Assembly: GCA_900617105.1 (NCBI GenBank)
Contig: UYFQ01000306.1
Location: 1-64,000, forward strand
Origin: Hydrurus foetidus
Lineage: Eukaryota
DNA: 64,000 nucleotides
Direction of reading: 5' to 3'
Shown here: positions 1,836 to 9,859 of the stretch, one piece after another
Numbering within the stretch: position 1 is the first letter of the stretch
How the letters are laid out: every line of letters begins with the position of its first letter
Program-made: the position numbers and the translations under genes
The notes under the pieces: model-generated
Seen by the model: the letters and a program-made list of their open reading frames with translations, nothing else
Told to the model about the DNA's origin: nothing
Databases searched by the model: none

Positions 1836-2007
1836 GGTTCCCCAGATTTTTTGCTTTTTTAGTATGGCGTGGGGTGATTTGGACGTGACCTGAGGTGTCT
1901 GAGTTTTCGGCACGAAAAGCAGACATTTTATTCTGCTACGGTAATATATCTCGCGGAGCAAACTGCTTCGGGTGAGATCACTATGTCCATGGCATAATGA
2001 TGATGTA

Positions 2008-2438
2008 CCGTCTAGTCCCATATGTTTGGTAAAAAAAATGTTAATAGGCCATTTGACCACACTCAAAATCACCAAAAAATAATTTCACCGAAAAAACTAT
2101 CTTCATCAATATTCAGAATCATGAAGAGTTAGCTATCAATTCAAATTCAGCACAATTATTCAAGATAGATGGCATATTTGAAATTTGTCAAAATAATTTT
2201 GCGGAGTGCAATATTGCGATCCCCAAGTACCGAACATGTCAAAAATGGTGCGCTAAGCAGTCATTAGCAACTAAACCATAATCGGACATGCGATACGACC
2301 ATATATAATTTTGTGTGGAATTTCATGGGGCATGCAATGCGCGAATAATACTTTAACTTTTCTTCATTATTACACTTGGTATACTCGAAAAACAGTCATT
2401 TTGACAAAACCGTTTACCAAACATATGGGACTAGACGG
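2008..2438. mobile_element. MITE / non-autonomous Tc1-mariner-type DNA transposon (431 bp)
   Basis: Perfect 26-bp TIRs CCGTCTAGTCCCATATGTTTGGTAAA (2008-2033 and 2413-2438), TA on both sides (2006-2007, 2439-2440), AT-rich non-coding interior. Confidence 0.9.
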
Positions 2439-4526: not shown

Positions 4527-4831
4527 TGTTGGGCTCTCTCTAAGTCCGGATGCTTAGTGACTCGTGCTACCGGTGACCCAAGGCTCGAAAAATAGACTTG
4601 CACTGTGTAATAACTTGATAATTAAACTTGTGCACCGGCATCAATCAAGACGGCAACGCGAGGCAATTGCATATGTTCTATCCATGTTGAAGATAGATGA
4701 ATGGATGGCTCAATGAGCCCATACAATCAATGGTCCACAGTCCACATCCCTAGGATGCACACCGCTGACCGTCAGGATCCACACATATACTATACAACTA
4801 CAGCAGTATCTTTTCTCCGGATACTCCAACA
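4527..4831 (-). repeat. 3' LTR of the copia element (305 bp)
   Basis: Direct repeat of 9542-9859 with about 20 substitutions and one 13-bp indel (counted by eye); TG...CA termini. Confidence 0.95.
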
Positions 4832-5028
4832 CACCCAACAGTCACGCAGTAGTTGAGCACCCAGGCACGCAATGGATTTTCATGTCAGCAATAAAATAAA
4901 TGTAAATTGATTTGCAAGCAGTAATGTCTAACTTGTCGGTGAGCAGTAACGGTGAGCTGTCCTTGTCGCCGGCACCCTTAATTCTTCTCGTCCACTGTGG
5001 ACCACCCCGTGAGCCCATCCCTCTCCCT

Positions 5029-8000
5029 TTAGAACTGGCATCCTTGAAGCGGCTTGGTCAGTACGTTCGCGTACATATCCTCGCTGCGTAAGTACTCCAC
5101 ACGCACCTCACCGGTCACCACCCGCTCTTTCACCCAGAAGTAACGGATCTGGATATGGCGTGTGCGCTCCGCCCCTGATCTGCCACGCTCCACCAGGGCC
5201 ATGCACGACTGGTTGTCCTGGTAGATGGTCACCGGCTCCATTTTGTAACCCTGTGCAATTAGAAAAATACGGATGAATATGCCTTGATTAGCTGAGTCGG
5301 ACAGCCCCACCAGCTCTGCCTCTGTGCTCGACTTGGTGACTATCGTCTGCTTCGAAGATCGACAGTGAACGGCCCCGATGTCTCCAATCACAACTCAGCT
5401 GCCCGTGTGGGACCTCCCATCACTGTGTACACCGTAGGATGCGTCCACAAATAGCCGCACTGAGATCCCCCCTGCACACGGCCTCAGCACTACGCCGCTG
5501 TCCCTCGTCGCATGTACGTACCGCACCAATCGCTGTAACTTGTCAACATCATCTGAGGTGCACTTATTCACACGTGTTGCCAGGAAGGCCACCGCCACTA
5601 GGCACTCCGGCTTGGTACGCTTGGCTAGGTAGAGCACCATTGCGACCACTTAGTGAAACCAGACTCGCACTGGCTCTGTCACTCCTGTGGCACTCTCCCT
5701 TGTCTCGAATAGTCCTTCTGTTGCTGGTGTCCGTTCCGCACCCTTCACCCCTGATACCTTGACTATCTCGTCACAGTATTCTGTGGTGTTGATCATCGTC
5801 TGTCCTGGTACATGCATGTCGATTGCCATACCGAGATAATTTATGACAGGACCATGCGATAAAGTGATTGCTCCGTACCTCTTTCGCAGTCCATCGACTA
5901 GGTGGAGCACAGTGTCTTTGCTCTTACTCGTAATGAGCAGATCATCTACGTGTACAGCAGCAGTACACTGATGCCCATCTGGGCCCGTCCGGTTGAATAC
6001 GCATTTATCGCTGATATTCTGTATGTACCCCAGTCCCCGCATCGTGACGTGCAAATTCTCATACCACAATCCGGCGCTCTCGACACACCCGTATAGCGTC
6101 TTCTTTAGATGCACGGTCACTTCCCCTTTTGCATCCGTGTACTTACCGTACGATGGGTCGATGTCGATAATGATGTCTGTCATGGTGCGATCGAGGCGCA
6201 TATGCACCGGCACCCCCGATGACATGTCCGCGCCCCACTGATGTCAACAACTGCGACTCTACGCCTTTCATGTGCTGCAGTCGCTAGTAGTGTGAATACA
6301 GCACTGGTGGACACAGTTGGGGAAGATAAGTCCTCATACAGGCTCTTGTCTTGTTGGTCGCCCCCTGCGACCAGTCTAGCCTTGAGCTTGAGGAAGCTTC
6401 CGTCTGGGTTGTTCTTCTGCTTCAGGAACATGGACGATCTGATGGTCGCTGCTCTCTGCATCGCAGACAGCTTGCCTCCCATCACCAGCACCCATATCCT
6501 CTTGTCTATCATCTGTTTTAGCTCTGACACGATGACCTTCTTAGCCTCATCCCCTTTAGTACGAAACGCCTCTTTGACACTAATGTTGGCTGTGCTGCTC
6601 TTGCTCATTTCCTCCCTATGTCGCTTTATCACTTCCTCTACATCGTGTGTTCCAGGTCCTGTGTCTGCTGGTCTAGGGGTGGTACCCCCAACGTTCGTCA
6701 CGAACGCGTCCTCGCTCGTACGGACTGACCGTGTCACCATACGTTACGTTGGTGCGGGTGTTCTACGTTGCTCTCTCACAGTTGGTTGCACCGTGTGTGC
6801 TGGTTGCTGTGGAAATGACGCGCTGTCAGCTTCAGCTGTGTCGACTGGACTGTCGTCTGGTTCGAGTGATGGTACTGGTGAGGGTGATGGTGTAAGTGCG
6901 TCGCGAACTTGCACCCCGATTGTATCGGGTTCCTCAATTCCGATTTCATCTAGTGGCGATAATGCTGTTGCTTCAAATGGGACTGGTACCTCCCCCCCCA
7001 AATTGGAACGTGGAATCTCGTAAATGCTGTCGGCTGATTGTAGGTCAGTGAAAGTGGGTTGGTCTACCGATCCGGCGTCGACAAGTGCATCCTGAGTGGG
7101 GGGGTTGATAATGAAATGTGGCATTTTAGATTTGTCGAGTCTGTTAGCGAATAGCAGTTCATCAAACACATGTAATTGAGTTTGAACGATTTTCTTCCCT
7201 TCTTTAACTGCCATGGCATTCAGTGTCACGATGACCGACTGCTGGCAGTTATGCCAGCATTCAGTGTCCTGACTGCTGGCAGTTGATGCGAGAGACGCAG
7301 TAGAGTGCTAGATAGGTTAGACAGAGTTCAGTTGGAGTAAATGAGAGCCTACCGCAGACGTGACCACGTGCTCGCTCCTTCACCATCTGAATCTGCCGTT
7401 CGATTCTGGCTACATGTCCGCCAGCTGCACTGACATCTACCTCTATTCCTAGTGCTAGCAGATCAAGCCTCATTTTGCCGATAGCACCCTCCCCGTCGGA
7501 CATGACGACTTGCATTAAGAAGTTCCTGGATTTTAGTATGGATATCATCTCACATAGGGCCGGCTTCACAACTGCTGCTGCTCGCGAGGTCTTCTCGGTA
7601 TCAAGTCGAATTAGGCTGACAGCGAGGGGTGGAAACCGCGATAAGTATCGCTGTAGTCTCCAGATACATAATGTCTACACTCAATACTTGTTGCTGCTGC
7701 GCTGGTGCAGGTGTCAGCGAGATGACTGCCACAGGTGAAGACTTCTTATGAGTTTTGCCTCTGAGGCTGGCGAGGCATTTACCCCAGATGGAATGCGTAT
7801 TCCTGAAGTCCGCTTCCTAGACGTTGAAGTTGTGGCCTCCCCTGATCATCCGGTGGGTAACCCATCCGTGCTAGCAGCTCTCTGGCTGCTGCTGCTGATC
7901 CTATCTCGCGTTTAGTGAACCTCGCCATGTTGTCTTGAAGTGTCGTCACCATCGCCTGCTCTACAAGTCGATGTGTCTGTCCTTCCATCCTGCTTGCGTC

Positions 8001-9516
8001 CCACACATAGAATCTGCCTGTCGAACTTGGTAAGTCTTGCCTGCTGAAGCTGTACTTGGTCGTGCTGCCTGCTGGTCGTAGCATGAAGCATCCTGCCTCA
8101 TGGTCGTAGCTGATGTCCGCACCACTGTCTGCCATCGCGGCGAAGGACAGTATGTTGGCAGTGGCCCCACGACTGAAGTAGACAGGTCCAATCTGGCCAA
8201 AGTCTCCTTCTTGATGGACTCTGACACCATGCGCTTCGGACTGTACTCCATTGAGCAGGATCGCGTGTTGCGATTTCCTGATATCCGTGAGAAGGCTTGG
8301 GTTGCAAAAGATGTTAACCGAAGCTTGATTGTCGAGCAGCACATGACTCCGAGTGAGCAGGGCGACTTCGTCTGTCGTGACGAAGGCTGCTTCTATGCTC
8401 TCGTCATCCTCCTCAATATCTTCTTCAACGCTGGTGAGTAGAGCGTGCTCCCCATCTTTGCGTTGCTCACAATCTCTTGCGAAATGACCCGTCTTTCCGC
8501 ATACGAAACATATCACTGACGATATTTTCTTCTTCGTCCCCGCTGTCTTCCCCTTCGACCCTTTTCCAACGACTTTTTCCTTTGTCCCTATCAAAGAGTC
8601 TGTGAGAAATGCGGAATGTTGCTCGGCTCCGAGGGGACTCCGCCGCCCGAGCTGGTCCAGGATGACGCTACCCTGTAGGCTCCGGCTAAGGTGGAAGGGA
8701 AACTATTCGGCAGGTTTTGTACAGCGTTGTTACGCATGTCAACATACCGGTATACCTTTTCGGGTCTAACTTACTGAGGAAGTCGATTGCTCTAATCGGT
8801 TCTTCAACTTCAGTCATACCAACACCTCTGTTGGCTAATACCTGATTGTCGAAGCGTGTCTTGAAATCGCCTATTATTTCACGTTCACCTTGTCTGAGGT
8901 AGTTGTACCGAATCGTTTGCTCGTGAACGTTCATTGCTCTCATTGAATCATCTTCTCCGTAGATGTGAGTTAAGTGGCTCCTACGAATGCACTCCCACAG
9001 TTTCACACTGTCAAGTCTGAGACGGGCCGCTTCGAATCCTGGTTCCTCGCGCACCTTGGATTTGGACCCCGTCGACATTCTCGACCACATGAGTGGAAAG
9101 AGCTTTTGCTCGTCGACTTTTTGAGTCTCTACTGCCTTGCGGCGTCCCTCGAACGCATTGGCTCTCAGCCTGTCGATAAGTGCCTCGGAGTACACGACAG
9201 GGGGCTCTGGAGGAAGCTGTGGCCCGATCATGACATTTTCGAGGTCTACGGACTCGTCTTCCTCGTCTTCATTTTCGGTACCCGCTGTCGGGGTATCGAT
9301 TTCCACCGTTAGAAAGGTGGGATTGTAGTCCTCCTCGCGAGGATACAGATGGACGTAACTCTTGTTGGTGGTGAAGAACGTGCCCGTCATCCCGTAGAGG
9401 CCGCATGCCTCGTTCTGCATATCTTCCCTCCATTGCACCACGTTGTTGTAACGCCCAAATTTCAGCATGCACTGCTCTGCACCTGATTTTGGTTCTTCTT
9501 GTTTCTTCGGCGGCAT
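5029..9516 (-). pseudogene. gag-pol: gag-pol polyprotein broken by several frameshifts/stops and an integrase-region rearrangement
   Basis: ORF fragments 8686-9516, 7779-8594, 7261-7569, 6744-7229, 6180-6740, 5650-6225, 5395-5649 and 5029-5391 carry consecutive copia motifs. Confidence 0.93.
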
Positions 9517-9531
9517 CTCGATGCGCTGATT

Positions 9532-9542
9532 AGTTTAATTAT
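9532..9542 (-). promoter_or_regulatory. non-tRNA PBS (ATAATTAAACT), putative self-priming site
   Basis: No TGG follows the LTR. The sequence is the exact reverse complement of LTR nt 9643-9633 (AGTTTAATTAT on the sense strand). Confidence 0.75.
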
Positions 9543-9859
9543 GTTGGGGTTTCTCTAAGTCCGGATGCTTAGTGACGCGCGCTTCCGGTGACCCAAGGCT
9601 CGTAAAATAGACTTGTACTGTGTAATTACTTGATAATTAAACTTGTGCACCGGCATCAATCAAGACGGCAACGAAGCTTTACATATCAAGACAATTGCAC
9701 ATGTTCTATCCATGTTGAAGATAGATGAATGGACGGCTCCATGAGCCCAAACAACCAACGGTCCACAGTCCACATCCCCAGGATGCACGCCGCTGACCGT
9801 CAGGATCCATACATATACTATACAACTACAGCAGTGTCTTTTCTCCGGATACTCTAACA
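9542..9859 (-). repeat. 5' LTR of the copia element (318 bp)
   Basis: Direct repeat of 4527-4831. It retains a TATA-like TATGTAAA (9685-9678) that the 3' LTR has lost. Confidence 0.95.

What the first reader, a model, noticed from the sequence alone, without database searches (positions are those of the whole stretch)
9516..9690. Ty1/copia element with the signature of tRNA-independent, Tf1-style self-primed reverse transcription
Seen: after the 5' LTR there is no TGG tRNA PBS. The sense strand reads (A)TAATTAAACT (9542-9532), and the gag ATG follows only 15 nt later. Inside the same LTR, 9643-9633 reads AGTTTAATTAT, the exact 11-nt complement. It is conserved in both LTRs and lies ~35 nt downstream of a TATA-like TATGTAAA (9685-9678), i.e. 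where the transcript should start. Established: S. pombe Tf1 and related Ty3/gypsy elements prime minus-strand DNA by annealing the first 11 nt of their RNA to the PBS and cleaving it with RNase H. From memory, the Tf1 PBS (ATAACTGAACT) is very similar, and this should be verified. Inference: this stramenopile copia-order element uses the same mechanism with a compact ~90-nt loop. Self-priming is much less documented in copia, so this would be convergence or module exchange.
Basis: partly seen in the sequence, partly recalled or inferred. Interest (0 to 1): 0.9.

Follow-up and report, generated by a model that had tools for sequence, protein, structure and literature searches.

The report
Self-priming copia retrotransposon lineage
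A broken copia-type jumping gene has, at the spot where a host tRNA normally binds, a short stretch that pairs with its own terminal repeat, and at least ten of eleven testable relatives show such a pairing with different letters, so this lineage likely starts copying itself from the front end of its own RNA.

Summary
A decayed 5.3-kb Ty1/copia element (minus strand, 9859-4527) has no TGG site after its 5' LTR. Bases 9542-9532 pair exactly with 9643-9633, which both LTRs carry (2 of 5000 shuffles match as well). Eleven relatives with a readable LTR-primer-site junction all pair 9-17 bp at the LTR edge with their own LTR, mostly with unrelated letters, against 6 of 132 cross-pairings; one (L063) depends on where the LTR end is drawn. 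Two alignable relatives mirror a substitution and an indel on both sides. Four other elements give 4-5 bp. Tf1-like self-priming is the best reading (0.8), inferred only: no transcript start, host tRNA set or assay was available. The TATA argument is weak, the likeness to the Tf1 sequence is probably chance, and self-priming is already predicted for plant copia (TAR: Houba, Osr-1). My paper searches found no report for diatom-type copia, but this scan has noted the trait at least eight times on other DNA. New variant of a known kind.

The parts
9542..9859 (-). 5' LTR, 318 nt, TGTT...AACA
9678..9685 (-). TATA-like word TATGTAAA, inside a 13-nt stretch absent from the 3' LTR; function doubtful
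9633..9643 (-). predicted self-primer AGTTTAATTAT (predicted 5' end of the RNA; a CA dinucleotide, 9645-9644, precedes it)
9628..9633 (-). TCAAGT at the predicted cut side of the primer; [AT]C.A at this register in 7 of 10 elements, not in the 2 found later
9532..9542 (-). primer-binding position: last A of the LTR plus TAATTAAACT; no TGG
8633..9516 (-). gag (ATG at 9516; frameshift near 8735); 84 homologues in metagenomes
7845..8636 (-). CCHC zinc knuckle (about 8513-8469) and protease region (LLDNQAS near 8330)
   Evidence: protease motif read from the sequence
7267..7849 (-). integrase region (SDGEG near 7500), upstream of RT: copia domain order; broken
   Evidence: motif assignment from general knowledge
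4999..6740 (-). reverse transcriptase (PF07727, HVDD) and RNase H; frameshift near 6231 and internal stops; 70-72% identical to intact P0085
4832..4839 (-). short G-rich site GTTGGGTG in place of a long polypurine tract; GGTG or GAGTG before the LTR in most relatives
4527..4831 (-). 3' LTR, 305 nt; carries the same 11-mer at 4628-4618

Best explanation
This is a decayed copy of a Ty1/copia LTR retrotransposon whose primer-binding position pairs with a stretch of its own LTR, and its lineage likely primes minus-strand DNA with the 5' end of its own RNA instead of a tRNA. Shown: copia anatomy, absence of a TGG site, the 10-11 bp pairing anchored at the LTR edge, and its conservation with changed letters in relatives. 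Inferred by analogy with Tf1: transcription would start at or just before 9643-9645, the first 10-13 bases would fold onto the site 90 nt downstream, the element's RNase H would cut at the end of the duplex (about 9633), and the freed 3'-OH would be extended across U5 and R. The trait likely arose independently of the Tf1/sushi gypsy group; its relation to plant TAR copia is untested.
For: Window: 11 bp, 2 of 5000 shuffles; the duplex is in both the minimum-energy and centroid fold of the predicted 5' RNA. Relatives: 11 of 11 loci with a readable junction pair 9-17 bp starting 0 to -2 nt from the LTR edge, each reached by 0-9 of 1000 shuffles; 0 of 12 sites have TGG in the first 8 nt; only 6 of 132 site-versus-foreign-LTR pairings reach 9 bp. 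The ten LTRs first analysed give no blastn match to one another, RT-RNase H identities to P0085 run from 27 to 72%, so the pairing is kept while letters change. L092 and L103, found by a pattern that does not involve the site, have alignable LTRs and mirror one substitution and one indel on both arms. The 9 self-pairing rows in the RT tree lie on one side of one branch (SH-aLRT 97). Four other elements give 4-5 bp. Contigs of the same family show indels just outside the site, one type extending the pairing to 13 bp. A CA dinucleotide touches the 5' edge of the motif in 7 of 10 elements against a background of 0.15 (post hoc). The site meets the working criterion of PMC6317226 (10 bp or more, 0-5 nt after the LTR).
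Against: No transcript start, cleavage or priming data: no RNA run was listed. Host tRNAs could not be checked (no genome held; no tRNA in the window). For L005, L023, L063, L078 and L092 I drew the LTR end after seeing the inverted repeat; by the fixed rule 'last CAACA before the gag ATG' 7 of 8 pass and L063 fails (5 bp). L077, just outside the branch, gave 6 bp on an uncertain boundary. The two flanking helices of the Tf1 'pretzel' are not evident and the overall fold is no more stable than shuffles (z -0.5 in the window; significant in 1 of 5 elements). No consistent TATA. Loop length varies from 53 to 205 nt.
Confidence: 0.8

Rival explanations
1. The pairing is a conserved RNA structure with another job (closing a 5' UTR domain for packaging, dimerisation or control of gag translation), and priming uses something else, such as a tRNA half or an unknown route like that of the hairpin site in fungal GalEa copia.
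For: The gag ATG is only 15 nt from the site; tRNA-half priming and tRNA-less hairpin sites are described in copia (PMC6317226, PMC5445492); host tRNAs were not available; no RNA start is mapped.
Against: The duplex stops at the LTR edge within 0-2 nt in all 12 elements, the register a primer needs and a regulatory stem would not; twelve largely different sites would each need a different tRNA fragment; the window's motif does not fit an anticodon loop layout (inference from general tRNA structure) and has no Rfam match; in the GalEa hairpin the partner lies downstream of the site, not in the LTR.
Confidence: 0.13
2. The LTR motif is the template or product of a separate small RNA (a short or read-through LTR transcript from another copy) that primes in trans, rather than the folded-back 5' end of the same RNA.
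For: The family is present in many variants (546-596 contigs laid in two runs); sequence alone cannot tell cis from trans; Tf1-type flanking helices are not evident.
Against: Short loops (53-205 nt) and the predicted intramolecular fold make cis pairing the simpler case; no precedent was found in the papers read.
Confidence: 0.05
3. The match is chance in an AT-rich stretch, or an effect of how LTR ends were chosen.
For: The window's 11-mer is 91% A+T; five relatives' boundaries were chosen after seeing the repeat; L063 fails under the alternative end.
Against: 2 of 5000 shuffles; 7 of 8 pass under a fixed boundary rule; mirrored changes in L092/L103; controls 4-5 bp.
Confidence: 0.02

Closest known systems
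Tf1/Tf2 of Schizosaccharomyces pombe, Tj1 and the Tf1/sushi group (Ty3/gypsy chromoviruses)
   Same: Primer site right after the 5' LTR is complementary to about 11 nt inside the LTR; no tRNA match (PMC7175516, PMC4600332, PMC10085805; passages).
   Different: Other superfamily: integrase before RT, RT of the PF07727 type, no chromodomain found by Pfam. The three-helix 'pretzel' is not evident. Self-priming is shown by experiment for Tf1, only inferred here.
TAR lineage of plant Ty1/copia (Houba, Osr-1, Fourf)
   Same: Copia elements predicted to self-prime by the same sequence criterion (PMC6317226; passages).
   Different: Land-plant lineage; this element's nearest RT clusters are recorded mainly from diatoms. 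No TAR sequence was in my tree, so shared or separate origin is untested.
CoDi (Copia of Diatoms) elements, e.g. Blackbeard and Surcouf
   Same: Size (5.2-8 kb, LTR 153-844 nt, TG...CA; PMC2806351 section 18); nearest RT clusters commonest in Bacillariophyta.
   Different: The main text of PMC2806351 has no passage on primer sites or tRNA; its Additional file 1 is an image that I could not see. No named CoDi sequence was compared. The host here is not shown to be a diatom.
Fungal GalEa copia with a Conserved Hairpin Site
   Same: Copia without a tRNA site; an AT-rich word at the site (CTAATTAGT there).
   Different: There the partner lies 12-41 nt downstream and the authors found no complement in the LTR (PMC5445492); here the partner is in the LTR and the sequence is not conserved.

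Membership tests
Ty1/copia LTR retrotransposons | Two LTRs with TG...CA ends around gag-pol | tested here: met
Ty1/copia LTR retrotransposons | Domain order PR-IN-RT-RH and a copia-type RT | tested here: met
   PF07727 on two RT pieces; colinear with intact P0085, SDGEG before KARLVAGG/HVDD; IN and PR assigned by motif, not by a Pfam hit
Ty1/copia LTR retrotransposons | Target-site duplication | tested here: not met
   flanks AAAGG and ATATC; an old or recombined copy
Self-priming LTR elements (works like Tf1) | At least 10 bp complement in the 5' LTR to the bases 0-5 nt after the LTR, no tRNA 3'-end site | tested here: met
Self-priming LTR elements (works like Tf1) | Pairing conserved through compensatory change | tested here: met
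Self-priming LTR elements (works like Tf1) | The LTR motif is the 5' end of the RNA | not testable with these tools
   no RNA holder listed; only indirect CA-edge signal
Self-priming LTR elements (works like Tf1) | RNase H cleavage releases the primer | not testable with these tools
   needs an assay
Self-priming LTR elements (works like Tf1) | Three-helix 'pretzel' around the site | tested here: inconclusive
   central helix predicted in 5 of 5 elements folded; flanking helices not consistent
Tf1/sushi group (Ty3/gypsy) | Gypsy domain order and chromodomain integrase | tested here: not met
Plant TAR copia lineage | RT/RH/INT phylogeny within TAR | not tested
   no named TAR sequence was available to the tree
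CoDi (Copia of Diatoms) | RT phylogeny within a CoDi lineage | tested here: inconclusive
   nearest Atlas clusters (score 0.97) commonest in Bacillariophyta, phylum known for only 3-4 members each; no named CoDi in the tree
tRNA-primed copia | Site begins TGG (tRNA 3' end) | tested here: not met
   0 of 12
Half-tRNA-primed copia (Osser, Bianca type) | Site complementary to the 5' half of a host tRNA | not testable with these tools
   no host genome; no tRNA in the window; no Rfam match in the LTR

The most novel reading that the evidence does not exclude
A deep, widespread copia clade of aquatic protists (RT-RNase H as little as 27-50% alike) replicates entirely without tRNA primers: a further independent origin of self-priming, using a bare 9-17 bp duplex without the Tf1 pretzel, a preferred word at the cut site and a very short G-rich plus-strand primer site.
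Probability: 0.55. Interest if true: 0.7.

Novelty: new variant of a known kind. Interest (0 to 1): 0.55.

Why it matters
Self-priming is proven only for Tf1-type gypsy elements and predicted for one plant copia lineage. A broad protist copia clade with direct compensatory evidence would show that RNase H-based self-priming evolved repeatedly, give intact single-ORF members (P0085 and others) for the first test in copia, and explain why pipelines that require a tRNA site (for example the filter described in PMC7466962) would miss such elements. The interest is tempered by the plant precedent and by the lack of any RNA or biochemical data.

Tried and rejected
No whole genome is held, so host tRNAs and other genomic copies could not be examined. 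No RNA holder listed: no evidence either way on expression or start site. Scans of viral contigs found no relative; metagenome scans gave none and 2 loci without the junction. A closer second look at variants over the two arms in sequencing runs could not be obtained, so in-family invariance of the 11-mers is known only from the 40 best-supported of 130 variant rows (none falls in either arm). No solved structure matched the polyprotein profile. Atlas search with a host gene did not identify the host. A pattern search for LTR end plus ATG was far too unspecific. Rejected: TATA as positive evidence; Tf1 sequence likeness as evidence of module exchange; GalEa-type downstream hairpin; folding z-score as support. 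The [AT]C.A word after the primer looked strong (7 of 10) but failed in the two held-out loci (one family), so it is at most subgroup-specific. Dropped before counting because the junction is not on the contig or no boundary could be drawn: L001-L004, L007, L008, L010, L011, L013-L017, L019-L022, L024, L077, L079, L086, L097; L006 repeats L005. Of the 40 contigs gave a readable clade junction (L053, L063, L078) and 3 a control junction (L064, L065, L081); of the 29 loci, 5 were repeats and 2 gave new junctions.

Full report
Observation. The window holds a 5.3-kb LTR element on the minus strand: 5' LTR 9859-9542 (318 nt), 3' LTR 4831-4527 (305 nt), both TGTT...AACA, about 93-94% alike. Right after the 5' LTR there is no TGG. 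The last A of the LTR and the next ten bases (9542-9532) are the exact complement of 9643-9633, which the 3' LTR also carries (4628-4618). The arms are 90 nt apart and the gag ATG follows 15 nt later. In 5000 dinucleotide shuffles of the LTR an edge-anchored match of 11 or more arose twice. The TATA-like word at 9685-9678 is real but sits in a 13-nt stretch that the 3' LTR lacks, 42 nt from its first T to 9643, longer than the usual 30 or so (general knowledge).

What the element is. Pfam finds a CCHC knuckle and two pieces of a Ty1/copia RT. The DNA is colinear, in 7 pieces, with an intact 1617-aa single-ORF relative, P0085, with the integrase region before RT. The copy is dead (frameshifts, stops) and has no target-site duplication. 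The family is large: 84 gag homologues, 41 long polyproteins, 1662 RT-RNase H hits at E 1e-30 or better among 7991 scored. The DNA occurs in freshwater, sediment, biofilm and air metagenomes and in three runs of one coded organism; none is on record as RNA. The nearest Atlas clusters of the RT are commonest in diatoms, on 3-4 members with a phylum each; the host itself is not identified. 'Diatom-type (CoDi-like)' is therefore an inference.

Covariation. Eukaryotic contigs lodged in bacterial genome bins supplied relatives with DNA (22 loci; more). The LTR-to-gag junction could be read in eleven. All eleven pair the bases at the LTR edge with a stretch of their own LTR: L026 10 bp, L009 9, L012 9, L053 10, L018 15, L005 17 (one contig copy has a G-U wobble), L023 16, L078 11, L063 15, L092 11, L103 11; each was reached by 0-9 of 1000 shuffles; none of the 12 sites has TGG in its first 8 nt; and 6 of 132 pairings of one element's site with another's LTR reached 9 bp. 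The ten LTRs first analysed do not match one another by blastn. L026 belongs to the same gag family as the window (39% to P0085) and has TAATTGACTG against CAGTCAATTA. L092 and L103 came from a pattern that covers only the LTR start; their LTRs align, and one substitution and one single-base indel in the LTR arm are mirrored in the site. Four comparison elements (L064, L065, L081 and the window's neighbour with a TGG site) give 4-5 bp. In an RT-RNase H tree of 45 rows the nine self-pairing rows present lie on one side of a branch with SH-aLRT 97 (quick search, midpoint root, no named references; L078 has a long branch; L026, L092, L103 lack RT and are not in it). Against: for L005, L023, L063, L078 and L092 I drew the LTR end after seeing the repeat; under the fixed rule 'last CAACA before the gag ATG' 7 of 8 pass and L063 fails; L077, next to the branch, could not be judged. 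The loci dropped are listed under Tried and rejected.

Within the family, contigs laid on the window show indels just outside the site: a C behind 9530 (3-5 contigs per run) and CA behind 9531 (1-2 contigs per run), the latter extending the pairing to 13 bp; none of the 40 listed substitution rows falls in either arm, but 90 rows are not shown. Two database proteins read through the site as NIIKLD (P0034, P0113), and P0044 as NIIYLE, so the site is kept at 47% gag identity in one case and changed in another.

Mechanism. Tf1 pairs the first 11 bases of its RNA with the site and RNase H cuts between bases 11 and 12 (PMC7175516, passage), helped by two flanking helices (PMC10085805, passage). Here the central helix is predicted in 5 of 5 elements folded, including the centroid structures, but flanking helices are not consistent and the total energy beats shuffles only in L018. 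The duplex ends within 0-2 nt of the LTR edge in all twelve, which is the register a minus-strand primer needs. A CA dinucleotide touches the motif's 5' edge in 7 of 10 (background 0.15; post hoc) and in both held-out loci (read), which would fit an initiator-type start; a TATA box at a fixed distance is not seen. The start site, the cut and the priming are all inferred. A tRNA-half primer cannot be excluded without the host's tRNAs, but would need a different fragment for nearly every family and would not explain the LTR match.

Comparison with what is known. Self-priming was proposed for the plant copia families Houba and Osr-1 and predicted for their TAR lineage (PMC6317226, passages), so it is not new to copia. 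Fungal GalEa copia lack a tRNA site but have a downstream hairpin and no LTR complement (PMC5445492, passages and section 10). The paper that defined CoDi has no main-text passage on primer sites (PMC2806351, passages and section 18; its Additional file 1 is an image I could not see and may bear on this). Of the Tf1 site only ATAAC was confirmed (PMC11042837, passage). Passages of PMC4600332, PMC3601003, PMC3587641, PMC5776459 and PMC7466962 were also seen; the original Tf1 and Houba papers were not read. Searches listed no paper reporting self-priming in diatom or stramenopile copia; the library lacks most subscription journals. Eight earlier notes of this scan describe the same trait in diatom-type copia on other DNA; I had reached the reading before seeing them, and they are not independent evidence.

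Verdict. Real feature; it works like Tf1 by inference (0.8); it is a Ty1/copia, not a member of the Tf1/sushi group; membership of CoDi and kinship with TAR are open. New variant of a known kind; interest 0.55.

Noticed in passing
window 1327-1320 and 1321-416 (minus strand): A neighbouring LTR-like element has CA followed by TGGTAGCG, a conventional tRNA-type site, then a gag-like ORF unrelated to P0085 and, after a frameshift, a C-x8-C-x5-C-x3-H-like finger. It served as a control (5 bp); its class was not established.
   Followed up: partly
window 4839-4832; L004, L005, L008, L009, L012, L013, L018, L020, L063: The plus-strand primer site of this clade is a very short G-rich word ending GGTG or GAGTG directly before the LTR's TG (10 of 13 rows), not a long polypurine tract.
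   Followed up: partly
window 9633-9628; L026, L009, L012, L018: [AT]C.AGT directly after the predicted primer in 5 of 10 elements with unalignable LTRs (background 0.0045); absent from L092/L103. Possibly a cut-site preference of a subgroup.
   Followed up: partly
L064 and L065, just after the LTR end: Another copia group has a palindromic site (CGCTAATTAGCG / CGCTATATAGCG) with a downstream hairpin and no LTR complement, resembling the Conserved Hairpin Site of fungal GalEa.
   Followed up: no
window 4526-4510: The flank of the 3' LTR repeats CCAACAAT 17 nt further on; read on the plus strand it begins TGTTGGA like an LTR start. Unexplained.
   Followed up: no
G001, G002, G003, G007, G011: Several bacterial genome bins hold many eukaryotic retrotransposon contigs (67 and 49 RT matches in G001 and G011): contamination of the bins.
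   Followed up: partly
window 2006-2033 and 2413-2440: A perfect 28-nt inverted repeat 379 nt apart, probably a small non-autonomous DNA transposon.
   Followed up: no
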